A stretch of DNA of 64,000 nt, from contig JAFGXQ010000045.1 of the NCBI GenBank assembly GCA_016936575.1, positions 70,664-134,663 on the forward strand. The letters are read 5' to 3'. Shown in pieces: positions 16,109 to 33,490 of this stretch; position 1 is the stretch's first letter; every line of letters starts with the position of its first letter. The DNA comes from Deltaproteobacteria bacterium (GTDB lineage Bacteria; Myxococcota_A; Polyangia; JAAYKL01). Position numbers and translations under genes: made by a program. The notes under the pieces were generated by a model. The model was not told the DNA's origin, did no database searches, and saw only the letters and a list, made by a program, of their open reading frames with translations.

Positions 16109-16141
16109 GCGGGTTCCTTTATCGTTCAGCAAATCCGCGAC

Positions 16142-18787: not shown

Positions 18788-20560
18788 CTACATGATAACG
18801 TCAGTCGGAGGCCCGTACAGGGTTGGACGCCACACCACATACCCGAACGCGGTCTGCCCGAAGTTGTATTCCCGCACCATCGTTTGAGAGGAATCCACCT
18901 CATGAATAATGGCCTGGTTGCTATAGGCAACAATTGTGTTGTTATTCGGCAATCGCTGAATATCACCCAGGGTGGGAGTTCCCATATTCGGTACACTGTA
19001 ACTCCATACAAGGCTCATATTTCCTCCGCCACTCATGCTGAACTCCATGCCAACACTGGTCAGATTCACATCGGTAAAAGTACCGGCATTATTGAAGATC
19101 AATAGATTGCCGTTATTCAGCAGCTGGTGCCCGTGCTGCGGTCCCCATGAACCATCATTTTGCGTCAGCCACGAGACATTACCGTTTTTGTCAAATGCAA
19201 CAATCTGATGATGTTCATAGTCGGATACGGTAAATAACCCTTCCGCCTCTGAATACCGCAAGGAATTGCCGTGACAGTTGGCCCCCCAGGTATTTGCGGT
19301 GTCATAAATCAAACTGGTGTTGCCGTTTACATCCAGCGACATCACTCTTGCACATGCGGTCGACATAATGCCGCCGGTGCTTGGTACGTACTCCAGATAT
19401 GCAAAATTGTTGTCGTCAGTCACTGTCAAATCATGCGCGGCGCCTGTCAGAGAGGTAAACTGTTTTACCTCCAACCCGTCCATCGAAATCAGTTCCACCG
19501 ACCCTGCGGTTCCATTGTTGTTGCTCGAAACTACCGCCATCCATTTGCCATCGTAGCTCATACGCGCACGAGTGCTGTCTGCCAGTGATGTGGCGGTGTG
19601 CCACCATACAATGTCGCCGTCCGTATCGGCAATAAATGCCATCGGATTCTGCATCCATGAATTTGCCGAATATGATGCGAGGACCATGAATCCTTCACCG
19701 GGTGTGGTCCCGGCATGACTATCGGTAACCGTTGCGGCCTGTATGGCATTGGTCACCGGCCCGGTCGTGACGTTGTAATCTGGGCTGGTATATGTATTAC
19801 CGTCAATCTCAATTACCACGCGCAAATGGTAGGTGCGTGAGCCTTTCATTCCGAGAAGCAGGGTTCTGAAATCTTGTGCGTGCAAGTCTACCGGCGCTTC
19901 CATTCCGTATGCGGTATCCAGACCGAATTCGATATAGGCGCTGTCGATTTGGTCATCGACATTCGTCGACCATGTGACAATCCCAACGGTGCCGATGGCG
20001 CTGCTGGTAGATGGGTTCACCGTAAATGTAACATCCGTGTCGCTGTCACTGTCAGCATCACTGTCGCTATCTGTATCGCTGTCGCTGTCGGCATCACTGT
20101 CAGTATCACTGTCACTGTCGGTATCGCTGTCGCTGTCAGTATCGCTGTCGGTATCACTGTCACTGTCGGTATCGCTGTCACTATCACTATCGCTATCGGT
20201 ATCGCTGTCGCTGTCGCTATCAGTATCACTATCGCTATCGGTATCACTATCGCTATCGGTATCACTATCGCTATCGGTATCACTATCGCTATCGGTATCA
20301 CTATCGCTATCGCCATCGCTATCAGAATCTCCGTCGCTGTCGGCATCGCCATCGCCATCGCCGTCGGAGTCACTGTCGCTATCGCCGTCAGAGTCGCCAT
20401 CACCGTCAGAATCACTATCCCCATCCGAATCACCATCCGAATCACCATCCGAATCACCATCCACATATACCACGTTACCTTCATCTGTCGTACAGCCCGC
20501 CAGTTGGATTGCCGCCAGTACCGCGCTGAGCCAAAGCACAACGAAAATTGAATATTTCAT
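18788..20560 (-). CDS. ASST-like beta-propeller lipoprotein with a very long (~150 aa) poly(D-S/G/T) linker
   Basis: Lipobox QLAGCTTDE, then [13 protein letters not shown]...[13 protein letters not shown] (~150 aa), then FN3-like and propeller parts with [19 protein letters not shown] and [12 protein letters not shown]. About 60% identical to 17348..18766 over the propeller. Confidence 0.45.
20030..20460. repeat. ~430-nt in-frame tandem repeat array encoding ~150 aa of (D-S/G/T)n, including 5 perfect tandem copies of an 18-nt unit at 20223..20312
   Basis: Unit gtatcactatcgctatcg is repeated five times without mismatch. Degenerate 6/12/18-nt units flank it. Inside 18788..20560. Confidence 0.8.
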
Positions 20561-20653: not shown

Positions 20654-21484
20654 TCAGGGACGCTCCAGATATTCAGTTGTAAAATATAAATCTTTTGTAT
20701 TGGGTATATTTTCTATCTTTTCGATTTTAAAAATTGATTTTCTGCCGTTTTGTTTGTTCGTCATTTCCATATACTTTGATCGATATCTTTTTTTCAACTC
20801 GTCAAGGCATTCAATATTTTTGCTTTTCAGCTCTTTCAGCAGCTCCCCTTCCAAATCAAAATACAGCGCTTTTCGAATGGTATATTCTTCTTTCGCGATC
20901 CAGATTTTCTTTTTTGAATACCCTTCGTCCTCAGCAACGTCTTCATTTTTAGGTTTAACTTCAATCAGCCAACACGAAACACCATCCACCGCTTCTTCCT
21001 TCAGTGTTCTAAACGTGTAGTCTGTCAGCGTCGGTGTGTTCATATCGGCGTATGAAAACTCGCTTCCCATAAATGCCTTGGAACGTTCTGATGTGACAAT
21101 CCGCCGGGTTTTTCTGAGTGCAGGCAGATAAATCCACATATCATCCCCTTTATTTTCATAATCGAACGCAAGCACACCTGTTCCTTTGACGTCCGCCGGC
21201 GATAAGAACCGATATACCCGTTTTTCAGTCTTACCGTTGTCGAATAGTTTGGTAACCATCGCTATCTTGCGCTCTCGCTTTTCGCCTTTTCCGTTCTGAA
21301 TAATCAGCTTCATCACCGCCTCAGAACCATCCAGTTTGCGCGACAATGCAGCGTTTTCCATAATTTCTTTTGCCGTGAGCGTCGCCCCTGCATCTGCATT
21401 CATACCAGCGGAAATCACCAATCCAACAATAACCCCCAACACAAGCATGTTCGAAAACAAATATCGTCCTACTCTCATATCCAT
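20654..21484 (-). CDS. Outer-membrane lipoprotein-sorting (LolA-like, DUF1329-type) protein
   Basis: 276 aa with a signal peptide. It sits immediately downstream of an MMPL/RND exporter, as is typical for LolA-fold partners of MMPL-family exporters. Family assignment is by context and overall composition. Confidence 0.45.
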   Translation of the reverse strand: MDMRVGRYLFSNMLVLGVIVGLVISAGMNADAGATLTAKEIMENAALSRKLDGSEAVMKLIIQNGKGEKRERKIAMVTKLFDNGKTEKRVYRFLSPADVKGTGVLAFDYENKGDDMWIYLPALRKTRRIVTSERSKAFMGSEFSYADMNTPTLTDYTFRTLKEEAVDGVSCWLIEVKPKNEDVAEDEGYSKKKIWIAKEEYTIRKALYFDLEGELLKELKSKNIECLDELKKRYRSKYMEMTNKQNGRKSIFKIEKIENIPNTKDLYFTTEYLERP

Positions 21485-21519: not shown

Positions 21520-23841
21520 CTACGCCGCGCCGGGTAATTCCTCGGTCGAATTTCCACTCTCTGTAGGCTCCAGAAATTTTGGTTTAAATACAATCACCAC
21601 TGCCGGCAGCACCACCAGCGCACCGATAAGACACGAGACAATAGAAACCACCACCAGTAACCCGAAAAACTGTACAGGAAAAAACTGCGACAGAAGCAAC
21701 ACCACAAACCCAACCACCACCGAAAAACCATTGAACAGGATTCCCCGTCCCGCCGAACGCAATGTTATTTTCACCGCATCCATCGGTTCCGCCAGCCTGC
21801 GTTCCTCGCGATAACGCCACAGAAAATGAATGGTGTAATCAATGCCAACACCAATCATAATCGATGAAAGCATCGCGGTAATCAAATTCAATTCAATGCC
21901 CCAATACCCCATCAACCCGAACAATATTGAAACAGCAATTCCCAAAGGAATCATCGAAATCAGCCCCGCAACAACCGATCGCATTACAGCGCCTACCAAC
22001 ACACCACACAGGAGAATAGACAAAAACAAACTCAACAACTGCCCCCGTACGATGTAATCCACCATGTTGGTAATCACATCCAATAAACCGCCCACAATCG
22101 TGAACGGTGCCTGAGGATGGGCATCAATGTACGCCTGTGTGTAATGGACCACATCGGTTGCCGCCCGGGTTCCACTGTCTCGTACCTGCGCAAGGATTTG
22201 CGCATTGCGATAATTGAAGTCTACGAGTTTATTGAAATCCTCAATATCGCCGCTAAGCGAGTACAGCAGAAAGTACTGCGCAATCAAATCTCGTTTGTCC
22301 GGAACTTTATCCGCAGATGCGGCGTTGTCGTTCATTACTCTGTTCATTCCGCGCACCATTGCGGCGATTGATGATGTGGTACCCACCAGTGGATGCTTTT
22401 TCAGATGCCTTTCCAGTTTATCGATTTCCTTCATCACCGCAGGGTCTTTGATGTCGCCCTTGGCAACGATCGACACATTCGCCCACCCTCCGAAATGTTC
22501 ATTCAACATATGGGTGGCGCGCCAAACCGGATCGTTTTTTTTGTAAAAACTCATCGGATTGCTGTCTACAACAATAAATGCCGCACCTGTTGCAAATGCC
22601 ACGAGCAGAACCCCGCTGATGATTAAAATTCCTCTGGATTTTTTTGACGCGACATCCCCTATGAAATTCAACAAGCGACTCATCAATGTCGCCACATCCT
22701 GAATCTTTTTTTCTTTTTTCTTCTTCGATTTCGATTTCGGCAATACTGCCAATACCGCGGGAATAAACACCAAGCTGCCCACCATTGCAAAGGCAACACC
22801 GGCAGCAGCCAGAATTCCCAGCTGCTCTGCCGGAATGATGATATGCGAGAGCAGACAAAGAAGCCCCACCATCGTGGTGATTCCGCTTGCCAGAATGGGT
22901 TGATTTAAATGCTGAACAGTCGCATGGGCAAGCTGCTTCGAATCGAGTTCCTTGTTTTCAGCACGTTCTTCCTGATATCTCGCCATAATGTGAATTCCGT
23001 AATCATTTGCCACAGCAAGAAGGATTACGGGAAGCAACACGGTGACAGTATGAATTTTCCATCCGAGGAACGCGAGCAGACCAAGCGCAAACACGATTGC
23101 CATCACTGTCATAATAAACGGCATCAACACGCCGCGTGCTTCCCGGAAACATAACAGCAAGAAAATAAACATCAGCACCAAACCGACCGGAAGAAAACGA
23201 GACATGTCCTTTCGAATATCTTTCGAAAGCTTCACGCGGGTAACCGGCATCCCACCAATTAACGCATCTCCGGGCCCTTTCGTCTGTTTAATCAGTTGCT
23301 CCAGCTGACCAACCACTTTTTCATCTGAAGCGTCCGTCGCCAGAAAACCGATAAGCACCGTGTGTTTGAAATCCTTCGATACGATGTTCCCGTACACCAA
23401 CTCATTTTCTTTTAAATCATGACGTAGCGTTTCCTTCTGCTTCTCGCTTTTCGGTATACGGCGAATCGCCTGTTCCACCACCAGCTCTCCGCATTCGGCA
23501 CTGATATGTTTGGCGGTGAAAAGAGTGATTACCCGATCGAACTCTTTGATATGTTCAAACTTTTTCGACATTTCCTTCAACCGGTGAATCACGTCGATAT
23601 CGAGAATATCATCGGCAGAAAGCACAATCATGATCATATCGGTTCCACCGAACAGCTTTTCAATTTGGGTCAGATTTTTTCGAGTGGGCAAATCCACAGG
23701 CAGTTGATTCTTCATCTCCGTATCCAACTCAATGTGCCGAAGTTGAAAAGCAGCGGCAACCGTAACTGCAACAAAAATAACGATAATCGGCCAGGGGTGT
23801 GAGGTGACAAAATTTGCAAAACTGTTCTTCCGCTGTTTCAT
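21520..23841 (-). CDS. MMPL/RND-superfamily exporter (two 6-TM bundles, two periplasmic loops)
   Basis: 773 aa. N-terminal TM helix, a large periplasmic domain, a TM block (GLVLMFIFLLLCF...), a second periplasmic domain, then a second TM block ending in VVLPAVVIVFKP. Layout is typical of HpnN/MmpL-like exporters. Confidence 0.65.
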   Translation of the reverse strand: MKQRKNSFANFVTSHPWPIIVIFVAVTVAAAFQLRHIELDTEMKNQLPVDLPTRKNLTQIEKLFGGTDMIMIVLSADDILDIDVIHRLKEMSKKFEHIKEFDRVITLFTAKHISAECGELVVEQAIRRIPKSEKQKETLRHDLKENELVYGNIVSKDFKHTVLIGFLATDASDEKVVGQLEQLIKQTKGPGDALIGGMPVTRVKLSKDIRKDMSRFLPVGLVLMFIFLLLCFREARGVLMPFIMTVMAIVFALGLLAFLGWKIHTVTVLLPVILLAVANDYGIHIMARYQEERAENKELDSKQLAHATVQHLNQPILASGITTMVGLLCLLSHIIIPAEQLGILAAAGVAFAMVGSLVFIPAVLAVLPKSKSKKKKEKKIQDVATLMSRLLNFIGDVASKKSRGILIISGVLLVAFATGAAFIVVDSNPMSFYKKNDPVWRATHMLNEHFGGWANVSIVAKGDIKDPAVMKEIDKLERHLKKHPLVGTTSSIAAMVRGMNRVMNDNAASADKVPDKRDLIAQYFLLYSLSGDIEDFNKLVDFNYRNAQILAQVRDSGTRAATDVVHYTQAYIDAHPQAPFTIVGGLLDVITNMVDYIVRGQLLSLFLSILLCGVLVGAVMRSVVAGLISMIPLGIAVSILFGLMGYWGIELNLITAMLSSIMIGVGIDYTIHFLWRYREERRLAEPMDAVKITLRSAGRGILFNGFSVVVGFVVLLLSQFFPVQFFGLLVVVSIVSCLIGALVVLPAVVIVFKPKFLEPTESGNSTEELPGAA

Positions 23842-23854: not shown

Positions 23855-25402
23855 CTAGAACGATAATTTCATTTCCGCGTATCCGGCGCTCTGCAACTGA
23901 TCGATCATTCCGAACAATGTATCATCAGGCCCCATGTACAATTCCGCACCTACGCTGACCGTCATATCGTCGACCAACTTGTACGCAATTTTCGGGTACA
24001 CCAACCACTCTCCGGTTGAAAAGTTCGCCATACCGAACGCCACGAGAGAAAGTGTGTCGTGCAGCGTTGTCCAGGTGATACGCAACGACGCACCGTGCTG
24101 AATCTTTTCTGTATGGCCGTGAATCAGCTGATTTTTTACCGCCAATTCCCGGTACGCCATATAACTTCGCGTTTCCTCCGGAATGAATCCATAATTCTGA
24201 ATCACGGTATCCAGATGATCCAGGTCCAAATCCATGGCCAGAGAATTGATAAATTCCTCAATGGTGCTGTCACCGTCCGGTACGGTTTCCCAATCAAGTA
24301 CATATCGCCCGATATATTGACCGATAAGCAACACATTACCGATTTCCTTGTCCGCTCCAAGTACATAGTACACATCAGGCTTCGGAACATGAATACGCTG
24401 GTCACGAATGCTCGGTTTCTCGGTGGGGTACCGAAACGCAGCCTCTCCTCGCAGTCCGAATAGAGAAGCAATCGTGGTAGAAAAATCGGCCCCCACCACG
24501 TGATGTTTGTATGCACGACGCGAAACCGTCACCGATGCCGGAACGTCTGTAAGCTGGTACGACTCGAGCGACAGACCCGGCGTTAAAGAAAAGCCGTACA
24601 AATACGAAAGCGACATCTCGAACGATGAGAAAATCAGATGCGTCTTTCCGGCAATCAATCCGTTCAACACATCAAAGTCAGGATACACCGGGTCGCTAAA
24701 AACAATAGCATCTGACAACGCCACTTTCGGCATTACCGACGGAACATATATGGGCATCCACACGACTTCCAAGCGCAATGGGTTCAAGTTCAACCGCGCA
24801 CGCAATCCGATGTTGGCCAAACGCCGGTCGTCTTCTTCAGGCGAGCGAACCCGAATATCGACAGGTGTGATACTATTTGTTGGATTGATGCCATCGGCGC
24901 GTCCCCAAACAACAATCTGTTGACCCAGCCTCAGTTCCAAGCGACTGAGGTATAGATTGACATACGCTTCACGAAGCATAATTGATGTGTCAAACTCGCC
25001 TATCGACTCTCCTCCGCCCGATCGTTCTGTAGGTTGTCCCAGATATGTTTCATCATTCAAGTACCCTCCTTTCAATCGAAGCTCGGCGAAACCGTCCGTC
25101 ATCCGTTCTTTCACCGCCCGTAACTTCAACGCCAGTTCCCCATACCCTGTTTTCAGCTCAGCCCTGGGCTGTCGCGGCATTTTTCCGACAAACACGTCGC
25201 CGCGGATGTAGCCGTTCAAATCGAATGTCAAAGGATTCTGTACGACCGTTTCGGTTGATTCCCCATTGGAATCCACAGGCGATGCAGGGGCGGTATCTGT
25301 TTCATTCCCCGAAACCGCGTCGTCGAACAATCCGGCCGAAGCGATACCGGGTATGTGCGCAAGAATAAGAAATCCAATCAGTGCCTTAATACCATGTTTC
25401 AT
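23855..25402 (-). CDS. Outer-membrane beta-barrel protein (DUF1302-like)
   Basis: Signal peptide. LRLGQQIVVWGRADGINP resembles the DUF1302 conserved block. Alternating amphipathic strands. C-terminal ...AEMKLSF with a terminal Phe (OMP signature). Adjacent to the MMPL exporter. Confidence 0.4.
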   Translation of the reverse strand: MKHGIKALIGFLILAHIPGIASAGLFDDAVSGNETDTAPASPVDSNGESTETVVQNPLTFDLNGYIRGDVFVGKMPRQPRAELKTGYGELALKLRAVKERMTDGFAELRLKGGYLNDETYLGQPTERSGGGESIGEFDTSIMLREAYVNLYLSRLELRLGQQIVVWGRADGINPTNSITPVDIRVRSPEEDDRRLANIGLRARLNLNPLRLEVVWMPIYVPSVMPKVALSDAIVFSDPVYPDFDVLNGLIAGKTHLIFSSFEMSLSYLYGFSLTPGLSLESYQLTDVPASVTVSRRAYKHHVVGADFSTTIASLFGLRGEAAFRYPTEKPSIRDQRIHVPKPDVYYVLGADKEIGNVLLIGQYIGRYVLDWETVPDGDSTIEEFINSLAMDLDLDHLDTVIQNYGFIPEETRSYMAYRELAVKNQLIHGHTEKIQHGASLRITWTTLHDTLSLVAFGMANFSTGEWLVYPKIAYKLVDDMTVSVGAELYMGPDDTLFGMIDQLQSAGYAEMKLSF

Positions 25403-25403
25403 G

Positions 25404-26873
25404 TCAGAACCTGTACGATAATGCGAGCGATGAAAAGTGATAACTGCTCACATATACTCCGCTATTCGCTGTGGCTGAGGGCTGTTCAGGATAGTGGGCA
25501 TCGCAATTGTTGTTATCGGTATACGGCGCCTCACAAAAGCTTCCCGGAACTTGTTGATAAATCTGTCCGTTACTTTCGCTCATTGAAAATGGAATTTCAT
25601 ATACATAGGTGTATGACAGGGACACATCAAATCTTCCCAATATCAATGTTGTGCCCGCGCTCGCACCGAGTCGATGGGTGGCGGGAAAATCCACATAGGC
25701 AAAATTCTTTCTACTCGCTGCTGTTTCATAGAATGTACCTGCACGTATAATAAGACGATTGTCTATCACGTTCATGTCACCCCCAAACCGCACACTGAAC
25801 GTGTTTTTCCAGTGTTTCGGTATGACAATCTCTCCGACTTCAACACTGACCCCCATGACATCAGCGTACAGTCCCTTGCCGTCGATGATGTATTCATCCA
25901 TCTGGGACCAGAACTCATAGCGAACATCAAGTTCCAAGTCGTACAGATCTCTCTTTCCGCGCAAATGAATGTATCTCGCACCTGCCCGCAGCTCCATCGG
26001 AAGGGTCATTGCAAACGTCACGTTGTTATCAGGATTGTCGTTTCTGCTGAGCTCCGGCGCTTCTTCAAGAGAAAGAAACACTGGTGTGAGCGAAAGCTCG
26101 CTGTCCGCGTGTAGATAAGTAGGAATCAGCCGTCCGGAAAACGCCAGTTGAAAAGAAGGCATTGGATGCACCCAGAATCCGAGAATTGCCGAAATCCCGG
26201 TATGGTCTGCGCCTTTCACAGTAGCCGCCATATCAAACAGGCTGGAAACCGGGCTGACCTGCCCGGGAGTCGTATCTCCGTTCACAATTAATTGCAATTC
26301 CAACTGTGCCAAATCCACCCACTGCAGACTGACCCCCACACCGAACACATCCTTGTACCGCCATGCCGCACTGAGGCTGTAATACAGAATTTTTGTATCC
26401 CGCCGTGTCAACATATAGCGCTGACCACCGTCTTGCGAAAATTCCTGCGTGGAAATACCGGCCGGTGCGTAGGTTCCCAACGCAAACGCCCAGCTCTGAA
26501 GGCCGAAATCCGTCGATACGACAATCATCGGCCCGAGCAACTGCCAAGTGTGCTCGTTATTCACAGTGTCAAATGTTACGTAGTCGGGAATACCCTCGCC
26601 GGCCTCGCTCCAGTCCAGTAAAGGCGCACGCCTGAATTGTTCATGCGCGTAACCGAACCGATTACTCAGATATAGTTGCGTGCCGTGTAGAGATGTCAAT
26701 CCCGCGGGGTTATATTCAATGGCGGTGGCATCATCAGCTTTAGCAACAAAGGCACCACCTCGACCAGCGGCCACCGCGCCCTGATCTCCCACCGATATTC
26801 CAGCAGACAACACATCATTCGAAAACATGACGATGATTCCCCCCAACGCGCATAGAACAATAAAAAAAGCCAT
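25404..26873 (-). CDS. FadL/OmpP1/TodX-family outer-membrane hydrophobic-compound channel
   Basis: Signal peptide (MAFFIVLCALGG...), N-terminal ...ADDATAIEYNPAGLT (NPA-type hatch motif of FadL), and a long beta-rich body ending ...LSYRF. Start moved to the internal Met to remove overlap with the upstream gene. Confidence 0.5.
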   Translation of the reverse strand: MAFFIVLCALGGIIVMFSNDVLSAGISVGDQGAVAAGRGGAFVAKADDATAIEYNPAGLTSLHGTQLYLSNRFGYAHEQFRRAPLLDWSEAGEGIPDYVTFDTVNNEHTWQLLGPMIVVSTDFGLQSWAFALGTYAPAGISTQEFSQDGGQRYMLTRRDTKILYYSLSAAWRYKDVFGVGVSLQWVDLAQLELQLIVNGDTTPGQVSPVSSLFDMAATVKGADHTGISAILGFWVHPMPSFQLAFSGRLIPTYLHADSELSLTPVFLSLEEAPELSRNDNPDNNVTFAMTLPMELRAGARYIHLRGKRDLYDLELDVRYEFWSQMDEYIIDGKGLYADVMGVSVEVGEIVIPKHWKNTFSVRFGGDMNVIDNRLIIRAGTFYETAASRKNFAYVDFPATHRLGASAGTTLILGRFDVSLSYTYVYEIPFSMSESNGQIYQQVPGSFCEAPYTDNNNCDAHYPEQPSATANSGVYVSSYHFSSLALSYRF

Positions 26874-26922
26874 CTGAAACTGTCGATGCGGCCGATAGAA
26901 CACAGTCACCCCTTTGCCTCTC

Positions 26923-27918
26923 CTATACCCCTGTACAATCCGCTGACATGGTGTTTCTGAACAACGAAGTAACATCTTCAGCTTCAAAGAAAGCCGATAG
27001 TCGATAACCGATTCGCCCATCCGCTGTCACACAGCTGGGTACGATTTCAGCTGCATCCATAATTCCGCGAAAGGTCGCCCAGTTTCCATTTTGCCCACAG
27101 GCGCTGGCGCAATAGCCCGAAATCGCTTCCACTGAAAACGATTCAAACGGATCTTCCGGCGGTGTCGGAAAACCGGTTTCCGGTAAAGCGCCGTCTTTAC
27201 TGCACAATCCGGCCTTGATACACATACAAATTTGATTGACCGACTCCTGCGGCAGGCACCCTTCAAGATGCCCCGACGAAATCTGACTACAGTTTTCATT
27301 AAAACCGAACGTAACATGCAGATCATGAATCGGCGTGCTGTTCGCGGGAGACAACAACGGCGCACACATCAGAGGATCAGTCTGCGGCCCCAAATGAAAA
27401 TATAACGTCTGTGCCTCGGTGTTTCTGAATCTGCACTGATAACCGTTTGACGGAATGACATCAACGCCGATATTCAACGATTCATCCATAAAACAATACG
27501 ACTCAATCGTCGAAAAATCATCGTTTGAATATCCGGTAGAAGGCGTGCGCCAGGCCGGGCCCACACTCAATTGCAGCCTGGAGAAGGCCGCGAGTTCGTC
27601 GTCATCGGCTTCTGCAATGTCAACCACGAACAGCACATTCAGCAGGTAATTCGAAATCTCGTATTCCCACATGCTGTCGAGTGTCACGTTCAGCCTGGCC
27701 GGTTGGTCAACGGTTAAACGGGTAAATCGATAGGCCCGGCCTGTCACGTCCTCGGGCGTGCAGTTGCACTGAGTATTCTCCCCTGTCGCATCGCCTTGGA
27801 TAAAGACATCCGGAGCCGGCGGCTCAATAATGTCCACACAAGCAACAACGGTCATCATCGCAACGGCCAATGTAGTTGTCAGCCTATACGCCTGCGACGT
27901 TCTCACCGCTCTCTTCAT
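26923..27918 (-). CDS. Hypothetical secreted lipoprotein (Cys-containing)
   Basis: Internal start MKRAVRTSQAYRLTTTLAVAMMTVVAC (signal plus lipobox). No recognisable domain. Confidence 0.35.
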   Translation of the reverse strand: MKRAVRTSQAYRLTTTLAVAMMTVVACVDIIEPPAPDVFIQGDATGENTQCNCTPEDVTGRAYRFTRLTVDQPARLNVTLDSMWEYEISNYLLNVLFVVDIAEADDDELAAFSRLQLSVGPAWRTPSTGYSNDDFSTIESYCFMDESLNIGVDVIPSNGYQCRFRNTEAQTLYFHLGPQTDPLMCAPLLSPANSTPIHDLHVTFGFNENCSQISSGHLEGCLPQESVNQICMCIKAGLCSKDGALPETGFPTPPEDPFESFSVEAISGYCASACGQNGNWATFRGIMDAAEIVPSCVTADGRIGYRLSAFFEAEDVTSLFRNTMSADCTGV

Positions 27919-27955
27919 GTGAAATACATGCTTACAGATTCGCACAAGGGTCATC

Positions 27956-28756
27956 CTATTCTGCGCACTCCGCACTTGCTGCTACGACTTCTGTCAACTG
28001 AAGACCTGAAACGACCTGACCAGTTACATTACTTGCGGTAAGATGCATGCAGAACAACTCGCCGTCATGTTCGCATTCTTCACATGCAAATCCCATCGTC
28101 GGCGCAGTGTTGCAAATCTTTTCAGGCGTGGGGTCTGTAAACATGATTGTAAACAGTTCGTAAATATCTCTGAAATCAACTGTGGCTTTGAGGGTACCAT
28201 CGATAAATGCATCTCCTCCGTTCACCAGAGACCCTGAAATACTCAAATCATGAATGGTTGCTACTTCGAAGGCACCATTTCCTTCAATAACGGTTTCCAG
28301 ATTTGTCGGACCAATCAGAAAATCGGGATTGTCCGCAATCGTGCCGCTGCACGAGGCCGTGGCACTACACATATCCTGCACACCGTCATTCATCGTTCCC
28401 ATCGAAGTCGTCAGCGCGGATTGAGCGATTTCTACAACGGTAAAGGCAAATATCGGAACATATCCGCCCAACTCCGCCCCCACACCGGACGGTGTCCAGT
28501 TTGCAGCCGGAATTTCATCCAGGGCATAGGTATTCGCCAAAATAACACTAACGTCTTCCAGGGGCGTTGCATCTAAAGTTTCGCTGGGGGTATCTGATTC
28601 CGAATCCACATCGGTTCCGCTGTCAGATGCAGTGTCACTATCGTTCGTGTCGATATTATCAGAATCATCGGCCTCATCCCCGGTTTTGTCGCCACAACTC
28701 AGCAGTAGCAGACAAAACAACCCTACCAATCCGGACAATTTCAATTGCGTTTCCAT
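27956..28756 (-). CDS. Lipoprotein with an acidic D/S/T linker (hypothetical)
   Basis: LLLLSCGDKTGDEADDSDNIDTNDSDTASDSGTDVDSESDTPSE, then a 200-aa domain with six Cys. Confidence 0.5.
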   Translation of the reverse strand: METQLKLSGLVGLFCLLLLSCGDKTGDEADDSDNIDTNDSDTASDSGTDVDSESDTPSETLDATPLEDVSVILANTYALDEIPAANWTPSGVGAELGGYVPIFAFTVVEIAQSALTTSMGTMNDGVQDMCSATASCSGTIADNPDFLIGPTNLETVIEGNGAFEVATIHDLSISGSLVNGGDAFIDGTLKATVDFRDIYELFTIMFTDPTPEKICNTAPTMGFACEECEHDGELFCMHLTASNVTGQVVSGLQLTEVVAASAECAE

Positions 28757-28789
28757 GTTACTTTTTCCTCCATTTGTTCTTCGCCGGTT

Positions 28790-29812
28790 CTATACCCAGA
28801 TGCCTGCCACTGTGGCCATTGTGAACCCCGACGCGGCACTTCCCAGCATGAGTTTTTCATCCTTTTGCGGTTCTCTTTGAGAAAGCAGATAATCAAACAC
28901 CACACCAATCGTGGCGCTGGCGTTATTTCCGTACAAGTGATGCGTGTATACTCCCCTATCCAATTCTGCACCGATTTTCGACAGAACCTTCCGCGTCATG
29001 AATTCGCTGGGTTGATGAAATAAGTAATGCGCAACCTCGTTGGGATCCCATCCCAATTTCTTCAACACCTCCATCAGACGAGGTGCAATATACTTATGAA
29101 GTTTCATCAGTTCCGTCGATGATGAACTGAATGTGCCGTGAATCGGCACCTGGCAGAGAGACCAGTGGTTAGGCAGAGAATGCGTGTCGGTACTGACAAC
29201 CCGAACACATCCGTTTGACCAGGGATTTTTGCTCACCAGAAAACAAGCTGCTGCGTTTCCGATGGTCAAACCGGCGGCTTTGTACTGCAAATCGGTAAGT
29301 GTTTGAATATCGAACGACAAAAACTCCCGCGAGAGTTCAGCTGTACAAACCAACGCAGTCTCGTAGTCATCGTGCATATTCAGGTACGCACAGGCGACCT
29401 GCACAGCTTCCAAATGTCCCACGCACGCACTGGTTACGTCAAAAGCATGCGTCTGTGTGATGCCAAGATTCGCACACACTTCCATTGCCGTAGCAGGCTC
29501 AAAGTACTCTCTTGCCACCCCACCGAAAATCACCAAATCCACATCGTCCAAAGCAGTGCTGTTTCTCTCGAGGCAGTTAGCAGCTGCCTTTGCCGCATAC
29601 GCCGCGACCCTTGACTCAGGATTGAAATCCAGGTAGCGCACCTGAGTATTACATTTGCTCAAAATCTTTTTGGTTGCCGCTTCAATGGCTGTCCACGCAA
29701 GCTTATTTCCCTTGTAGTTTTGTTTGACCAAATCGATAATCGCAGCATTGTCATATCGTGTATCAGGTACATGAATTCCCGGCTTAGATAAATATAGTTC
29801 TGGCATCGTCAT
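28790..29812 (-). CDS. 3-oxoacyl-ACP synthase III (FabH/KAS III)-like condensing enzyme
   Basis: Thiolase-fold length and layout. Active-site Cys context DVTSACVGHLEA, His in VAHYLFHQPS, Asn in YGNNASATIG (Cys-His-Asn triad order of KAS III). Start placed at MTMPELY. Confidence 0.55.
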   Translation of the reverse strand: MTMPELYLSKPGIHVPDTRYDNAAIIDLVKQNYKGNKLAWTAIEAATKKILSKCNTQVRYLDFNPESRVAAYAAKAAANCLERNSTALDDVDLVIFGGVAREYFEPATAMEVCANLGITQTHAFDVTSACVGHLEAVQVACAYLNMHDDYETALVCTAELSREFLSFDIQTLTDLQYKAAGLTIGNAAACFLVSKNPWSNGCVRVVSTDTHSLPNHWSLCQVPIHGTFSSSSTELMKLHKYIAPRLMEVLKKLGWDPNEVAHYLFHQPSEFMTRKVLSKIGAELDRGVYTHHLYGNNASATIGVVFDYLLSQREPQKDEKLMLGSAASGFTMATVAGIWV

Positions 29813-30023
29813 TGAATTGTTCCTGTATGTGTTTCCAGAAATCGTCCATGCAAGACAGCTCAGCATGTAAAGCCGTCTTAATCGAAGATTTAAACAATGG
29901 TGCGAACGAAGCGAGGAAAGGGGTTGATATAAATGAACCTTTTTTACTTATTCTTTTTACAGAGGAAAATGATTGCAGCTTATTTGAAAAATTTCGTTCA
30001 TCTCAAATCATTTCAACATTCTG

Positions 30024-31103
30024 TCACAAAAAAGTCTGATAAAATTCGGCGTAGTCACATCGAATCTGCTCTTCTGTTAAGCCAAACTTTTCCAGATTGT
30101 ATGCATGTTTGCTTTCGAATGCGCGTTGTTTCTGAGCGGTGTTATCAATCACCGTTCGCAATTCAGCAGATATTTCTCCACCTACAAACGGAATGATTTC
30201 GTCCATCAGTCCGTCGAAATCCTTCATCAAACGATCAAACGTCACAACCTTGACATTGGAACGATTAATTCTTCCGCTTTCCCAATCCCGCTGAAAACGC
30301 AAACTGAGTTCGAGTAACGCGGCATACAGCCGCTTGATAAAATGCGTTCGTTTTTCCTCGGGTAAACTCCAGAACCCGAATGCGCCGTCCAAAACGCCGG
30401 TAACCAGACTGAGACCGGACGGCACAGTCGAGAGCGGATCTCTTGCCATGTATAAAATTTTCGCATCCGGAAACCGATTCAAGAAGGAAGGCAGACGAAT
30501 GCCAAGTGAAAACAGCTTCCCTACAATGCGTTCTTTCTTTTCACTCACCAACACGCGGCGCCAACATTTCTCAATCCATTTAAAGTCGCGTTTGGCCGTA
30601 TCCCGCAGGTCCGGATCAAACATATCTCTCAAGTCCTTTTTCGACCAAGATAAGAAGAATCCGTAAATGAAAAAGCCGTCAAAGTAGCGAAACATCAGCG
30701 CCGGATCATCGGTTTCCACAGATGTCAGATTCGTCTTGTGCGCAGCATGGGCGTGATGTTTTGCAGGACTGAACTTCTCCATAATCGGAAGAAACGGCTT
30801 CAGCAAAGTCTGCAGCGTTAAAGAGGGATAGATCATCTTCCACAGTCTGGAACCCGTCCCGAACCCGTTATCAGTTAAAAACCGCTGCAGGAACGTTGTT
30901 CCGCTTCGAGGATTTCCCACTATCACAATCGGACTCGCAACTCGTTTTTTACGAAGCGACGGAAAAAACAAATGGTCGAGCACCATAAATACCGATACTG
31001 TCGCATGCAGCAGAAAAATGCCTGAAAATATAAAAACAGGAGAGATTACCTTACGAAATGCGCGTATCAATGCTTTGTGCACCAGAAACATTCTTGAAAT
31101 CAT
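30024..31103 (-). CDS. PAPS-dependent sulfotransferase family protein (with N-terminal hydrophobic segment)
   Basis: 5'-PSB motif IVIVGNPRSGTTFL (cf. PKSGTT) and a 3'-PB-like region (ILYMARDPLSTVPS). N-terminal TM-like stretch. Confidence 0.55.
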   Translation of the reverse strand: MISRMFLVHKALIRAFRKVISPVFIFSGIFLLHATVSVFMVLDHLFFPSLRKKRVASPIVIVGNPRSGTTFLQRFLTDNGFGTGSRLWKMIYPSLTLQTLLKPFLPIMEKFSPAKHHAHAAHKTNLTSVETDDPALMFRYFDGFFIYGFFLSWSKKDLRDMFDPDLRDTAKRDFKWIEKCWRRVLVSEKKERIVGKLFSLGIRLPSFLNRFPDAKILYMARDPLSTVPSGLSLVTGVLDGAFGFWSLPEEKRTHFIKRLYAALLELSLRFQRDWESGRINRSNVKVVTFDRLMKDFDGLMDEIIPFVGGEISAELRTVIDNTAQKQRAFESKHAYNLEKFGLTEEQIRCDYAEFYQTFL

Positions 31104-31515
31104 TGTTCGGTTTTTCCTTTTTTAGTTCATCCAACAGAAACAAAATTATCACATCTCTTTAGTGCACTGTTCCGCCGCAACAGGGTTGGCTTTTATTTTG
31201 TAAAATCCGAAAAATATCTTCAGAAGGAGAATATTCGCGTCACCCTCGGTGCGATAGATTCGCAATTCTCGATACAGCGCCTTATTCGACGAACCTGACT
31301 TCATAAAAAAAATAAACACCGTTACCAATTCAGGTTACTCGTCTTGATTCGAATCTATGAGGGCCTGTGCCGAAATGCTGTAGTCGTGTGGGACTAAACT
31401 CGCGTCATTCGCAGGAAGCGCTGCAGCCGACTTGCGTAAAATCAGCGATGACAAAACTCAGGATAGCGAAGAACGTTAAAACCCGAGCTATGGAGACTTG
31501 ATTTCGACGGGCGTT

Positions 31516-33165
31516 CTAAGGTGCCAGAGTGAGTTGGCCTTCATCGAGTGAAATCTGGTAGTAGCCGTGGTCGTCCCAGGCCAGTTTCTGACCATTTTGA
31601 GTAAGTGTTCCGCCATCCACGGTAACACGCAGACATTTTCCGGACGGAAAATTATCGGGCAGGTTCCACGACCAACTATGGCCGTCACCGCTGCTCGACG
31701 GACTCACAGACGAAAATGTTTTTTGTCCAATCCAATATGCCCCCACATTCACCACGCTGTCTATCCATACATCTCCGTATGATTTCATTTCGTTGACACC
31801 CGATACCATAGAACTGATTGGAATCGCGTTATACGCACCGTCTCCATATCCAGTGAACCCGTGCACGCAGTAAACTGCCCATCCGCCTTGATTACGCGCG
31901 TTGTTTGCCGGCACGCCGAACGTATACGCGTCCGCCCCCGCCGCTGGAATATATGACGGCAGATTAAAGGGATTTGAGTTGTCATTCGGCATAATAATAG
32001 CGCCGGCCACACCGCGGTTGATGATATACCGCGTACTTGCGGGAGAAGAACAAACCGTGCTCCCCTCTGGCGCCGCCATCGTATAGATTTCGATGTCCAG
32101 CGCGCTCTCCAGCAACTGCTCCGCGGTGTCAATCGACGAAGTATTACATGTGTGATCAGTGGTGTGATTTCCGATTTCGTGCCCACCGGCAACCGCATCG
32201 TGCCAAATCGATGCATTCTCGTCGTTCCAATTGGTCACAAGGTAGAATGTGTAGTGAACCCCCAGGCCTGAGAGCGTCCCCCATTCCTGAATGGTTGATT
32301 GGGTTCCATCATCGAGAGAATAGCTCACCGCCGCAGAATATCCCGCCCAATTCAACACCTGCAAATTGCCGGCCGCTCCAGAGGGCTTCGCCTGTCCACT
32401 GCTTCCCACATCCGGAAGTCCGCAATCATACACAACCCCCGGGTCTGAATCTGAATCGGAATCAGCATCGGAATCGGCGTCTGTATCGCTATCGCTGTCT
32501 GTATCGCTATCGCTGTCTGTATCGCTATCGCTGTCTGTGTCAGTGTCACTGTCAGTATCGGTATCGCCGTCTGTTGTACCGCCGGCATTGCAGCAAATGG
32601 CGGCCCAACCGTTTTCCGGACTGGGCACACATGGCGTTGCGCCGACAATTTCGCCTCCCAAACCGCCCCAGGTCGGATCACCGGTACACGCCCATTCGCT
32701 CGATACACATTCATACGCGCAGTCAGCATCTGAGTCGGTATCGCCATCGGAATCCGTGTCACTATCTGAATCCGTGTCACTATCCGAATCCGAATCGGCG
32801 TCGGAGTCGGTATCAGTGTCTGTATCTGCATCACTATCTGAATCCGTGTCACTATCCGAGTCTGTATCAGTGTCTGAATCCGTATCGCTGTCCGAGTCGC
32901 TGTCAGCGTCTGAATCTGTATCGCTGTCGGAATCCGTATCGCTATCCGAGTCGCTGTCAGCGTCTGAATCTCCGTCACCATCGGCATCGGCATCACTGTC
33001 TGAATCAGAGTCACCGTCGGAATCCCCGTCGGAATCCCCGTCTCCGTCGGAATCACTGTCGGAGTCCGCATCCGCGTCAGTCAAATCGACCGAAGCATCC
33101 TCTTGTCCGCATGCCATCAAAAACAATTGCGCCCCGAAAATAATAATATACAAATACTTGCTCAT
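31516..33165 (-). CDS. Lipoprotein with two poly(D-S/T/G) tracts and a polysaccharide deacetylase (CE4/NodB-like) domain
   Basis: Lipobox [10 protein letters not shown]. About 120-aa and about 45-aa acidic repeat tracts. CE4 motifs SYSLDDGT (TFDDG-like) and [11 protein letters not shown] (H-x-x-x-x-H metal site). Confidence 0.5.
32442..32574. repeat. In-frame tandem repeat (second acidic tract of the CE4 lipoprotein), including 3 perfect copies of an 18-nt unit at 32481..32534
   Basis: Unit ctgtatcgctatcgctgt is repeated three times exactly. Confidence 0.75.
32712..33075. repeat. ~360-nt in-frame tandem repeat encoding ~120 aa of (D-S/A/G/T)n (first acidic tract of the CE4 lipoprotein)
   Basis: Periodic gtcagcgtctgaatc / gtatcgctgtccgagtc units. 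Confidence 0.7.
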
Positions 33166-33490
33166 ATCGCTCCGTATCCCCATTCAGATTCAAAGGATTA
33201 GTCCGTTCAAAACATACTTTTCGTGCCAACCCATAGGCAACCATCCAAACAGTACCGCCACCATCTACAACGGCTCAAAGGGATTGCGCGCACGCACAAA
33301 ATGACCAGATTTGGACATTGAAGAGAAAAACTGTACACAACACGAAGGCGTGAATTCTCACATTTAAAAGAAGTGAAACTGAGGCCCAACGACAACAGTT
33401 CTGATTTCATTGACCCATGAATACTGACGTTATTATTTGGCATGAAAGTTGAGTAGAAACATCCAAAACTCAAACGCAGGAGCATTTCCT

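What the first reader, a model, noticed from the sequence alone, without database searches (positions are those of the whole stretch)
28790..31103. FabH-like KAS III immediately downstream of a PAPS-type sulfotransferase
The KAS III homologue keeps the Cys/His/Asn triad order. The sulfotransferase has a clear 5'-PSB P-loop (GNPRSGTT) and an N-terminal hydrophobic anchor. Pairing of a free-standing condensing enzyme with a sulfotransferase is unusual. It is reminiscent of ST-mediated chemistry in natural-product pathways (alkyl-sulfate formation, or sulfation-activated decarboxylative termination as in ST-TE modules). It could specify a sulfated fatty-acid-derived product.
Basis: partly seen in the sequence, partly recalled or inferred. 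Interest (0 to 1): 0.55.

Follow-up and report, generated by a model that had tools for sequence, protein, structure and literature searches.

The report
Sulfate-relay lipid gene cluster
A condensing enzyme and a PAPS-dependent sulfotransferase lie in one gene cluster with secreted aryl-sulfate sulfotransferases and a lipid exporter, so the cell probably makes a sulfated lipid-like carrier that takes activated sulfate outside the cytoplasm, which would show what bacterial aryl sulfotransferases use as their natural donor.

Summary
Two minus-strand genes, a PAPS-type sulfotransferase (30024-31103) and a KAS III-fold enzyme (28790-29812/29866), lie 157-211 bp apart.

The KAS is not housekeeping FabH. 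Its closest curated family and solved structure is OleA. It carries the OleA/PpyS catalytic Glu that marks head-to-head, non-decarboxylative condensation. It still scores far below every family cut-off.

The pair heads a 13-gene operon-like cluster (15512-33183). The cluster holds an MMPL/HAE3 exporter, a LolA-like protein, DUF1302-like and FadL-like outer-membrane proteins, several acidic lipoproteins, and two ASST-like lipoproteins that keep the catalytic histidine.

The linkage is conserved. In 80 Myxococcota loci that carry this KAS, ST occurs in 48 (directly downstream in 19), ASST in 47 and APS kinase in 31. ST homologues in Ketobacter, KSB1 and Bacteroidota sit next to a different KAS III lineage and secreted ASSTs.

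The best reading is a two-step sulfation system like caprazamycin Cpz6/Cpz8/Cpz4. A KAS-made enolic lipid, plausibly a dialkyl-hydroxypyrone, is sulfated from PAPS, exported, and used as donor by extracytoplasmic ASSTs. The product and the acceptor are only inferred. ST-TE-type olefin chemistry is not supported. I rate this a new variant of a known kind.

The parts
30024..31103 (-). PAPS-dependent sulfotransferase (Sulfotransfer_3, Stf-like) with a conserved hydrophobic N-terminal segment
   Evidence: Pfam hit. Best PDB match 2z6v, E 2e-6. PSB and PB motifs invariant. Hydropathy. Homologues at 52-80% identity in several phyla, next to ASST and KAS III genes.
28790..29812 (-). KAS III-fold condensing enzyme, OleA/PpyS-like (Cys130/His266/Asn296 plus Glu105). 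The ORF extends to 29866.
27956..28756 (-). u266: Cys-rich lipoprotein with an acidic linker, function unknown
   Evidence: Lipobox LLSC. No Pfam or PDB match. Homologues in 18 KAS loci, some in the order KAS-ST-u266-ASST.
26923..27918 (-). unk331: Cys-rich lipoprotein, function unknown
   Evidence: Lipobox VVAC. No Pfam hit. Found only in close relatives and in L079.
25404..26873 (-). FadL/TodX-like outer-membrane channel for hydrophobic compounds
   Evidence: Pfam Toluene_X, 1.4e-17. Present in 42 of 80 loci.
23855..25402 (-). DUF1302-like outer-membrane beta-barrel
   Evidence: Pfam DUF1302. Present in 50 of 80 loci. Shares a motif region with the 494-aa protein of Bacteroidota-type ST loci, E 6e-13.
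21520..23841 (-). MMPL / HAE3-family RND inner-membrane exporter
   Evidence: Pfam MMPL, 1.9e-45. TIGR00921 HAE3, 319 bits. Present in 39 of 80 loci. A different MMPL follows KAS-ST-APS kinase in L082.
20654..21484 (-). LolA_like / DUF1329-related periplasmic lipid carrier
   Evidence: Pfam LolA_like, 8.9e-55. Present in 46 of 80 loci.
18788..20560 (-). ASST-like (arylsulfate sulfotransferase) lipoprotein a, with a long Ser/Asp linker
   Evidence: Pfam Arylsulfotrans and Arylsulfotran_2. Lipobox LAGC. Equivalents of His252, His356, Asn358 and His436 are kept; the Arg374 equivalent is not.
17348..18766 (-). ASST-like lipoprotein b
   Evidence: Pfam hit. The family profile hits PDB 9kf4 at 2.4e-31 and E. 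coli AssT 3elq at 3.3e-22. Catalytic His is kept.
16142..17308 (-). u388: lipoprotein with two beta-sandwich domains, function unknown
15512..16132 (-). Secreted chalcone-isomerase-like (Chalcone_3) protein, a possible lipid or pyrone binder
   Evidence: Pfam hit, 1.4e-21. Weakly related to family c14, which occurs in 34 loci.
31516..33183 (-). Polysaccharide-deacetylase-like lipoprotein with two Ser/Asp tracts. Whether it belongs to the system is uncertain.
   Evidence: Pfam Polysacc_deac_1, 8.4e-9. Found only on the identical contig L001 and not in other loci.

Best explanation
The ST-KAS pair is the cytoplasmic half of a two-step sulfation (sulfate-relay) system.

Step 1 (inferred). The KAS III-fold enzyme has the Cys-His-Asn triad plus the OleA/PpyS-type Glu. 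It joins two fatty-acyl thioesters head-to-head. The product is a lipid-like compound with an acidic enol or phenol hydroxyl, most plausibly a 3,6-dialkyl-4-hydroxy-2-pyrone.

Step 2 (enzyme class shown, substrate inferred). The membrane-anchored PAPS-dependent sulfotransferase sulfates that hydroxyl.

Step 3 (gene content shown, direction inferred). The sulfated amphiphile crosses the envelope. The MMPL/HAE3 pump, the LolA-like carrier and the DUF1302-like and FadL-like outer-membrane proteins carry it.

Step 4 (inferred). Outside the cytoplasm there is no PAPS. There, the two ASST-like lipoproteins take the sulfuryl group onto their catalytic histidine and pass it to an unknown acceptor. The carrier is regenerated.

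This is the logic of caprazamycin Cpz6 (pyrone synthase), Cpz8 (PAPS sulfotransferase) and Cpz4 (ASST). Here it is rebuilt with a KAS III enzyme and adapted to a diderm envelope.
For: KAS chemistry:
- The closest curated family is NF006720. I showed that this model is the OleA family: an X. campestris OleA fragment scores 394.6 bits against a cut-off of 285.
- The best PDB sequence hits are OleA entries, at E 3e-15, against 1e-9 to 1e-11 for FabH.
- In the fold search, TM-score normalised to the query is 0.84-0.86 for OleA and 0.77-0.80 for FabH.
- Glu105, in the motif YFEPATAME, aligns with OleA Glu117. It replaces FabH Phe87 and is invariant in the family.
- That Glu is the catalytic base of head-to-head condensing enzymes, including the pyrone synthase PpyS (PMC4578411).

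Linkage in Myxococcota:
- Among 80 loci: ST in 48, ASST-like in 47, APS-kinase domain in 31.
- Among the 39 loci with full 10-kb flanks: ST in 28, ASST in 31, and either one in 37.
- ST lies less than 300 bp downstream of KAS in 19 loci.
- L082 reads KAS-ST-APS kinase-MMPL.
- L003 has ST next to a DHHA1-like gene, CysNC and CysD.

Linkage across phyla:
- ST homologues at 58-67% identity in Ketobacter, KSB1 and Bacteroidota lie directly after a KAS III gene. They are flanked by one to five ASST genes, and in KSB1 and Bacteroidota most of these carry T9SS secretion tails.
- Among metagenome ST loci of at least 10 kb, 17 of 20 carry an ASST.

ASST identity:
- The family profile matches E. coli AssT.
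- The window copies keep the equivalents of His436 (catalytic), His252, His356 and Asn358.
- The residue roles come from PMC13426309.

Precedent:
- Alkyl-4-hydroxy-pyrones relay sulfate from PAPS through Cpz8 to Cpz4 (PMC4257720, PMC6731281, PMC4924298).

Location:
- Both ASST-like proteins and four other cluster proteins have lipoprotein signal sequences.
Against: - No product, donor or acceptor has been observed. The pyrone is an inference from the Glu signature and from the lack of any reductase.
- The KAS scores far below the OleA cut-off (118 against 285). It could not be compared with PpyS or PyrS sequences.
- The KAS III next to ST in other phyla is a different lineage at 16-20% identity and lacks the Glu. 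The carrier chemistry may therefore differ between lineages.
- In both window ASST-like proteins the Arg374 equivalent is Asp.
- The linkage is not fixed in the window's own sub-lineage. The closest KAS loci (L007-L009) have no ST within 10 kb. The closest ST relatives (L090, L171, L172) have no KAS or ASST within 10 kb.
- No CysN, CysD or APS kinase gene is present in the 64-kb window.
- The direction of transport is not shown.
Confidence: 0.5

Rival explanations
1. The sulfated lipid is the end product. KAS and ST make a sulfolipid that the MMPL/LolA-like/DUF1302/FadL set places in the outer membrane or on the surface, as SL-1 (Stf0/MmpL8) and sulfomenaquinone S881 (Stf3) are handled in mycobacteria. 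The ASST-like lipoproteins only remodel it or have an unrelated role.
For: - The cluster has a full envelope lipid-transport set.
- L082 has the compact order KAS-ST-APS kinase-MMPL with no ASST gene detected within 10 kb.
- JGI names ST homologues Stf3-type, and the best PDB match is a mycobacterial-type ST.
- The Arg374 equivalent is missing in the window ASST-like proteins.
Against: - ASST-type genes are the most constant neighbours of this ST family across phyla: 17 of 20 metagenome loci of at least 10 kb, and up to five copies per locus.
- In KSB1 and Bacteroidota they are secreted enzymes with carbohydrate-binding modules. That is hard to explain if the sulfolipid is only structural.
- The catalytic His is retained.
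Confidence: 0.3
2. The cluster takes up or detoxifies compounds. It imports or expels environmental hydrophobic or phenolic compounds. The FadL-like channel and HAE3/DUF1302/DUF1329 sets are known from hydrocarbon and terpene metabolism. ASSTs and the ST conjugate those compounds with sulfate, and the KAS acts on an imported acyl compound.
For: DUF1302/DUF1329/HAE3 sets are linked to fatty-acid, alcohol and monoterpene handling in Pseudomonas and Castellaniella (titles and abstracts). FadL-family channels import hydrophobic molecules (family knowledge).
Against: - The cluster has no catabolic enzymes such as oxygenases, dehydrogenases or CoA ligases.
- The tight KAS-ST adjacency and the dedicated PAPS-synthesis genes point to biosynthesis.
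- The same trio occurs in Bacteroidota and KSB1 loci where no RND/MMPL gene was called within 10 kb.
Confidence: 0.1
3. One reading: sulfation-activated decarboxylative elimination. An OleA-type condensation, then reduction, gives a 2-alkyl-3-hydroxy acid. The ST sulfates it, and loss of sulfate and CO2 gives an internal olefin. This would be a route to head-to-head hydrocarbons without OleC and OleB, like CurM ST-TE.
For: The KAS is OleA-like with the catalytic Glu. OleB, OleC and OleD are absent from the cluster, so an alternative activation step is conceivable. A lipid exporter is present.
Against: - There is no ketoreductase or thioesterase in the cluster or in the minimal KAS-ST loci.
- The ST is free-standing and membrane-anchored, not an ACP-ST-TE module.
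- This model gives no role to the ASST genes that co-occur so strongly.
- The only 3beta-HSD-type gene in the window is 23 kb away and sits next to a steroid-reductase-like gene.
Confidence: 0.04
4. The adjacency is accidental in this genome. The ST was inserted next to an unrelated lipid-export cluster and works on another substrate.
For: The closest KAS loci lack ST within 10 kb. The closest ST homologues stand alone. The gap between ST and KAS, 157-211 bp, is the largest in the operon.
Against: The same pairing arose or persisted in at least two Myxococcota sub-clades. It also occurs, with a non-orthologous KAS III, in three other phyla.
Confidence: 0.06

Closest known systems
Caprazamycin two-step sulfation: Cpz6 (type III PKS making alkyl-hydroxypyrones, the presulficidins), Cpz8 (PAPS sulfotransferase) and Cpz4 (ASST) in Streptomyces sp. 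MK730-62F2 (Tang et al. 2013, read only through citing papers PMC4257720, PMC6731281, PMC4924298)
   Same: The same three enzyme roles are genetically linked: a thiolase-fold condensing enzyme, a PAPS-dependent ST and an ASST-type PAPS-independent sulfotransferase. PAPS-synthesis genes are often nearby.
   Different: - The condensing enzyme is a KAS III (OleA-like here, FabH-like in other phyla), not a type III PKS.
- The hosts are diderm bacteria.
- The ASSTs are lipoproteins or T9SS-secreted and occur in several copies.
- Dedicated envelope lipid-transport genes are present.
- There is no antibiotic scaffold pathway, so the acceptor is unknown.
- Homology of the ST to Cpz8 was not tested.
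OleA (Xanthomonas campestris), the head-to-head Claisen condensing enzyme of olefin biosynthesis; NCBIfam NF006720
   Same: It is the best-matching curated family and solved structure. The Cys-His-Asn triad and the Glu117-type base are conserved, and so is the overall fold (TMq about 0.85).
   Different: Sequence identity is only about 19-24%. The NF006720 score is 118 bits against a cut-off of 285. There are no oleBCD neighbours.
PpyS/PyrS photopyrone and pseudopyronine synthases (PMC4578411)
   Same: These are stand-alone OleA-related KS enzymes with an essential Glu (E105 in PpyS). Unaided, they make 3,6-dialkyl-4-hydroxy-2-pyrones. This is the same 4-hydroxy-2-pyrone compound class as the Cpz sulfate relay, and it would explain a self-sufficient KAS-ST pair.
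   Different: Their known products are signals or antibiotics and are not known to be sulfated.
Mycobacterial sulfolipid systems: SL-1 (Stf0, MmpL8) and sulfomenaquinone S881 (Stf3)
   Same: An Stf-type PAPS sulfotransferase acts on a lipid and is linked to an MMPL exporter. JGI assigns the Stf3 name to ST homologues.
   Different: The lipid scaffolds differ (trehalose esters, menaquinone). No KAS III or ASST is involved. The envelope architecture is different.
HAE3 RND transporters with DUF1302/DUF1329 partners (Pseudomonas putida cluster; Castellaniella AmeABCD)
   Same: The same transport gene set: an HAE3 pump, a DUF1302 barrel and a DUF1329/LolA-like protein.
   Different: Those systems are tied to tolerance or catabolism of hydrophobic compounds. 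They are not linked to KAS, ST or ASST genes.

Membership tests
FabH (housekeeping KAS III) | Scores above the curated FabH model cut-offs | tested here: not met
   TIGR00747 scores 82.8 bits against 292.1. NF006829 scores 99 against 249.
FabH (housekeeping KAS III) | Cys-His-Asn catalytic triad | tested here: met
   Cys130, His266 and Asn296 are invariant in 17 homologues and align with FabH C112, H244 and N274.
FabH (housekeeping KAS III) | ACP-docking Arg249, and Phe87 at the dimer-interface pocket | tested here: not met
   In the pairwise alignment Arg249 corresponds to Phe271 and Phe87 to Glu105.
FabH (housekeeping KAS III) | Location in a fab operon (plsX/fabD/fabG/acpP) | tested here: not met
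   The neighbours are an ST, lipoproteins and transport genes.
OleA (NF006720) | Scores above the curated cut-off of the OleA-containing model | tested here: not met
   It is the best hit, but at 117.8 bits against 285. A control OleA fragment scores 394.6.
OleA (NF006720) | Glu117-type catalytic base contributed across the dimer | tested here: met
   Glu105 aligns with OleA Glu117 and is invariant. Its position across the dimer was not modelled.
OleA (NF006720) | oleB, oleC and oleD neighbours | tested here: not met
   There is no alpha/beta-hydrolase, AMP-ligase or SDR in the cluster or in related loci.
PpyS/PyrS-type pyrone synthases | Triad plus an essential Glu, in a stand-alone KS that needs no partner enzymes | tested here: met
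   Residues are shown. Minimal KAS-ST loci have no other biosynthetic gene. The criterion comes from PMC4578411.
PpyS/PyrS-type pyrone synthases | Placement in the PpyS clade; a pyrone product | not testable with these tools
   No PpyS or PyrS sequence or model was available. No chemistry could be done.
PAPS-dependent sulfotransferases (Sulfotransfer_3, Stf-like) | Pfam score above the gathering threshold, with the 5'-PSB and 3'-PB motifs | tested here: met
   53.2 bits against 27. GNPRSGTTF and RDP..PSG..S are invariant.
Arylsulfate sulfotransferase (ASST) | Catalytic His436 and the sulfuryl-binding residues His252, His356, Asn358 and Arg374 | tested here: inconclusive
   The His436, His252, His356 and Asn358 equivalents are present in both window proteins. 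The Arg374 equivalent is Asp. Thr501 was not examined.
Caprazamycin-type two-step sulfation system | Linked condensing enzyme, PAPS-dependent ST and ASST | tested here: met
   All three are in the window cluster and in loci from four phyla.
Caprazamycin-type two-step sulfation system | The condensing enzyme is a type III PKS that makes triketide pyrones | tested here: not met
   The enzyme is KAS III-fold. Chal_sti_synt_N gave only a weak sub-threshold hit, and only for one distant KAS III, in L122.
Caprazamycin-type two-step sulfation system | The sulfated intermediate serves as the ASST donor | not testable with these tools
   This needs biochemistry.
CurM/OLS-type ST-TE termination module | The ST is embedded in a PKS module next to ACP and TE domains | tested here: not met
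   The ST is a free-standing 359-aa protein with an N-terminal hydrophobic segment. The cluster has no ACP, TE or PKS domains.

The most novel reading that the evidence does not exclude
Many Gram-negative bacteria (Myxococcota, Bacteroidota, KSB1, some Gammaproteobacteria) have a dedicated extracytoplasmic sulfation pathway. A KAS III-made enolic lipid is charged with sulfate from PAPS at the inner membrane and exported. It then acts as a reusable sulfuryl carrier for secreted ASST enzymes. Its role would parallel that of undecaprenyl-phosphate carriers in extracytoplasmic glycosylation. This would identify the long-unknown natural donors of bacterial aryl sulfotransferases and a route to sulfating surface or extracellular polymers where no PAPS exists.
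Probability: 0.35. Interest if true: 0.85.

Novelty: new variant of a known kind. Interest (0 to 1): 0.66.

Why it matters
Bacterial ASSTs are widely used as biocatalysts, but a 2026 review states that their natural substrates and physiological role are still unknown (PMC13426309). The only worked-out physiological case is the caprazamycin pathway in Streptomyces.

This window shows an ASST genetically tied to a donor-making pair, a condensing enzyme and a PAPS sulfotransferase, and to an export route. Related loci show the same linkage across four phyla. That turns the open question into a three-gene reconstitution experiment.

If the model holds, it explains how diderm bacteria could sulfate molecules outside the cytoplasm. 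It would also add a new role for OleA/PpyS-type head-to-head condensing enzymes. All carriers of the myxobacterial version found here are uncultured MAGs, so sequence context is at present the only way to study it.

Tried and rejected
- Housekeeping FabH: rejected on curated model scores and gene context.
- True OleA / ole olefin pathway: rejected. The score is sub-threshold and oleBCD are absent.
- DarB/StlD dialkylresorcinol synthase: only 23-30 bits against cut-offs of 450-550.
- ST-TE decarboxylative chemistry: no supporting domains.
- PDB sequence searches for ASSTb, u388 and u266: no hits. Only a family profile for the ASST-like proteins found AssT.
- Promoter and terminator scan around ST and KAS: nothing above the shuffled expectation.
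- PAPS-synthesis genes in the window: none found. A CysH/sulfite-reductase operon lies 27 kb away.
- PDB entry 9kf4, the best ASST-profile hit: could not be identified from the literature.
- Tang et al. 2013 and Malojcic et al. 2008 are not held in the library. I used citing papers and a review instead.
- Literature searches found no earlier description of a KAS III + ST + secreted ASST module. This is not proof that none exists.
- From memory only: 2z6v as M. avium Stf9, and the typed E. coli FabH sequence. (That 3row, 4kti and 5vx* are OleA entries was later confirmed.)
Full report
**1. The observation**

The interval 28790-31103 holds two minus-strand ORFs.

The upstream ORF (30024-31103, 359 aa) is a PAPS-type sulfotransferase.
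- Pfam Sulfotransfer_3 scores 53.2 bits against a gathering score of 27.
- The 5'-phosphosulfate loop GNPRSGTTF and the 3'-phosphate motif RDP..PSG..S are invariant in a 15-member cross-phylum alignment.
- Residues 19-43 are hydrophobic, with a 19-residue Kyte-Doolittle mean of about 1.9. The whole N-terminal region is conserved (P22, D43, P48). It is a conserved feature of the family, not a chance signal-like stretch.

The downstream ORF (28790-29866) is a KAS III-fold protein.
- The public copy starts at Met19, giving 340 aa.
- Cys130, His266 and Asn296 are invariant in 17 homologues.

The two genes are 157-211 bp apart. No terminator-like site lies between them.

**2. What the two proteins are**

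The KAS is not housekeeping FabH.
- Every curated NCBIfam model is missed by a wide margin: FabH TIGR00747 scores 83 bits against 292, and DarB scores 23 against 550.
- The best model is NF006720, at 118 bits against a cut-off of 285. A fragment of X. campestris OleA scores 394.6 bits on that model, so the nearest curated family is OleA.
- OleA entries are also the best solved-structure sequence matches, at E 3e-15, against 1e-9 to 1e-11 for FabH.
- An AlphaFold model (pLDDT 88.6) superposes on OleA with TM-scores of 0.84-0.86 normalised to the query, against 0.77-0.80 for FabH. The Foldseek E-values for the two are equivalent.

The key residue is Glu105, in the motif YFEPATAME.
- It aligns with OleA Glu117 and takes the place of FabH Phe87.
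- It is invariant in the family.
- This Glu is the base that deprotonates the enzyme-bound acyl chain in head-to-head, non-decarboxylative condensation. It is essential in the photopyrone synthase PpyS, as E105A abolishes activity. It is absent from FabH-clade enzymes (PMC4578411).
- The FabH ACP-docking Arg249 corresponds to a variable position, Phe in this protein.

The sulfotransferase's best solved relative is 2z6v (E 2e-6). From memory, that is a mycobacterial Stf-type enzyme. JGI labels several homologues 'omega-hydroxy-beta-dihydromenaquinone-9 sulfotransferase', the Stf3 function. Nothing points to a NodH-like carbohydrate enzyme, but no phylogeny was built.

**3. The surroundings**

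The pair heads a tightly packed minus-strand array running from 33183 or 31103 down to 15512. After the KAS, intergenic gaps are 1-93 bp. The order is:
- ST
- KAS
- two Cys-rich lipoproteins
- a FadL/TodX-like outer-membrane channel
- a DUF1302-like barrel
- an MMPL/HAE3 RND pump
- a LolA_like/DUF1329-type protein
- two ASST-like lipoproteins
- a further lipoprotein (u388)
- a secreted chalcone-isomerase-like protein

Five proteins, and probably a sixth, carry a lipobox Cys followed by Asp/Ser/Thr-rich linkers. The ST and the KAS are therefore the only two predicted cytoplasmic biosynthetic enzymes among the annotated genes. The rest of the cluster is envelope machinery.

**4. Conservation in Myxococcota**

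The sequence comes from a 'Deltaproteobacteria' MAG. A pattern scan of one genome per species found the KAS family only in MAGs, nearly all labelled Myxococcota (Polyangia, Polyangiaceae, Myxococcales) or unclassified (delta)proteobacteria. It gave 80 loci.

Searching those loci with the window proteins, and clustering all their ORFs, gave these counts:

| Gene family | Loci out of 80 |
|---|---|
| ST | 48 |
| ASST-like | 47 |
| u388 | 47 |
| DUF1302-like | 50 |
| LolA-like | 46 |
| FadL-like | 42 |
| MMPL | 39 |
| APS-kinase domain | 31 |
| CysD | 15 |
| DHHA1-domain protein lying between ST and CysNC | 19 |

- Among the 39 loci with full 10-kb flanks, 28 have ST, 31 have ASST, and 37 have one or the other.
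- In a divergent sub-clade (KAS 45-51% identical) the ST follows the KAS on the same strand within 9-139 bp. This holds in 19 loci, often with ASST and u266 alongside.
- L082 reads KAS-ST-APS kinase-MMPL.

The dedicated PAPS-supply genes make PAPS-dependent sulfation of a KAS-derived compound the natural reading.

Some evidence cuts the other way. The three closest KAS loci (72-77% identity) lack ST within 10 kb. The three closest ST relatives examined (74-79% identity) stand alone. The window itself has no CysN, CysD or APS kinase gene.

**5. Conservation beyond Myxococcota**

The ST family is much wider than the KAS family. Homologues at 58-80% identity occur in KSB1, Bacteroidota, Ignavibacteriota, Chitinispirillaceae, Pseudomonadales and Ketobacter.

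The contexts are:
- Ketobacter: KAS III, then ST, with an ASST on the other strand and an AMP-binding/PP-binding gene next to it.
- KSB1: three ASSTs, KAS III, ST, two ASSTs.
- Bacteroidota: two ASSTs, KAS III, ST, APS kinase, three ASSTs.

Most of the ASSTs in the KSB1 and Bacteroidota loci carry type IX secretion tails, and several in the KSB1 locus carry carbohydrate-binding modules.

A metagenome scan with the ST alignment gave 80 more loci. Among those of at least 10 kb, 17 of 20 have an ASST, 8 of 20 a KAS III and 7 of 20 an APS kinase.

A typical marine order is: ASST | ST, a 203-aa secreted protein, a 494-aa barrel, KAS III | T9SS proteins and an ASST. The 494-aa barrel shares the DUF1302 motif region with the window's protein (E 6e-13).

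The KAS III in these phyla is a different lineage. It is 16-20% identical to the window KAS and FabH-like. It has the triad but lacks the Glu. The ST and ASST are thus the constant partners, and the condensing enzyme has been replaced non-orthologously.

**6. Are the ASST-like proteins real ASSTs?**

Single-sequence PDB searches failed. A 16-member family profile hits a 'Sulfotransferase' entry, 9kf4, at 2.4e-31 and E. coli AssT (3elq) at 3.3e-22.

Counting along the printed alignment identifies the conserved HD, H-x-N and QH motifs as His252, His356/Asn358 and His436. His436 is the residue that is transiently sulfated (PMC13426309). Both window proteins keep all four residues. The Arg374 equivalent is Asp, so catalytic competence is likely but not certain.

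**7. Mechanism**

The one physiologically understood ASST is Cpz4 of the caprazamycin pathway.
- The type III PKS Cpz6 makes 3-methyl-4-hydroxy-6-alkyl-alpha-pyrones.
- The PAPS-dependent Cpz8 sulfates them.
- Cpz4 passes the sulfate on to the antibiotic (PMC4257720, PMC6731281, PMC4924298).

The window cluster has the same three roles. An OleA/PpyS-type enzyme can form a 3,6-dialkyl-4-hydroxy-2-pyrone unaided. That would explain why a bare KAS-ST pair suffices in the minimal loci, and why no reductase is present.

I therefore propose four steps:
1. The KAS makes an enolic lipid.
2. The ST charges it from PAPS at the membrane.
3. The MMPL, LolA-like, DUF1302 and FadL-like proteins export it.
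4. The ASST-like lipoproteins use it as a sulfuryl donor where PAPS is unavailable.

What is shown: the enzyme classes, the conserved residues, the predicted protein locations and the genetic linkage. What is inferred: the pyrone product, the ST substrate, the direction of transport, the donor role and the acceptor. My confidence is about 0.8 that KAS and ST act in one pathway. It is about 0.5 for the full relay model.

**8. Rivals**

- The sulfolipid is the end product, as with mycobacterial SL-1 or S881 (0.3). It fits the exporter and the Stf-like ST. It leaves the multi-copy secreted ASSTs unexplained.
- Uptake or detoxification of hydrophobic compounds (0.1). It fits what is known of HAE3/DUF1302/DUF1329 sets. 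It does not fit the biosynthetic pair or the PAPS genes.
It lacks a reductase, a thioesterase and ACP, and gives the ASSTs no role.
- Chance adjacency (0.06). It is contradicted by recurrence across clades and phyla.

**9. Novelty and verdict**

I found no paper that describes a KAS III + PAPS-ST + secreted ASST module. The principle, a two-step sulfate relay, is known from one group of Streptomyces antibiotic clusters.

This is therefore a new variant of a known kind. It differs in four ways: another type of condensing enzyme, a diderm export apparatus, secreted multi-copy ASSTs, and a wide phylogenetic spread.

It bears directly on the open question of what bacterial ASSTs use as natural donors, which the 2026 review says have not been identified. 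It can be tested with three genes.

Noticed in passing
window 58196-63987 (-): An assimilatory sulfate-reduction operon: PAPS/APS reductase, a Pyr_redox/Fer4 protein, sulfite reductase, a PALP cysteine-synthase-like gene and a tetrapyrrole methylase. It lies 27 kb from the cluster. No CysN, CysD or APS kinase gene occurs anywhere in the window.
   Followed up: partly
window 52395-54135 (-): A steroid 5-alpha-reductase-like gene (Steroid_dh) overlaps a 3beta-HSD/epimerase-family gene. This may be a sterol-modifying pair. OleD belongs to the same broad reductase family (from memory), but this gene is not linked to the KAS in other loci.
   Followed up: no
window 15512-33183, several genes: Five or six cluster proteins are lipoproteins. 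The lipobox Cys is followed by long Asp/Ser/Thr-rich acidic linkers, which gave spurious MSCRAMM SdrC/ClfA hits. The deacetylase-like protein has two such tracts.
   Followed up: partly
window 37441-39036 (+): A 531-aa protein with GILT, Thioredoxin_4 and DsbA-like domains lies about 4 kb from the cluster. Enterobacterial AST genes are co-encoded with dsbA or dsbL/dsbI (PMC13426309), and several cluster lipoproteins are Cys-rich.
   Followed up: no
L017, L020, L035 and others (19 Myxococcota loci), e.g. L020:17008-17988: A 326-aa protein with a borderline DHHA1 domain lies between the ST and CysNC. It is a candidate phosphatase for pAp, the by-product of PAPS-dependent sulfation.
   Followed up: partly
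L122:9070-11140 and L154:9082-11109: In marine Bacteroidota-type loci the ST is followed by a 200-aa secreted protein and a 480-aa outer-membrane barrel with a DUF1302-like motif. Both lack Pfam hits. They may be the export pair for the sulfated product.
   Followed up: partly
L087:12710-14860: In Ketobacter an AMP-binding + PP-binding (fatty-acyl-AMP ligase/ACP-like) gene lies next to the KAS III-ST-ASST trio. It may load the starter acyl chain.
   Followed up: no
L090, L171, L172 and L007-L009: The closest ST homologues (74-79% identity) have no KAS or ASST within 10 kb. The closest KAS loci have no ST within 10 kb. Within the window's own sub-lineage the two genes are usually unlinked.
   Followed up: yes
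window 16142-17308 and 47 related loci: The lipoprotein family u388 often occurs twice per locus, in many loci with one copy divergently upstream of the KAS and another after an ASST. A confident model shows two beta-sandwich domains with no informative structural neighbour.
   Followed up: yes
window 40365-45694 (-): MeaB and two methylmalonyl-CoA mutase subunits. This is ordinary propionate/methylmalonyl-CoA metabolism, with no evident link to the cluster.
   Followed up: no
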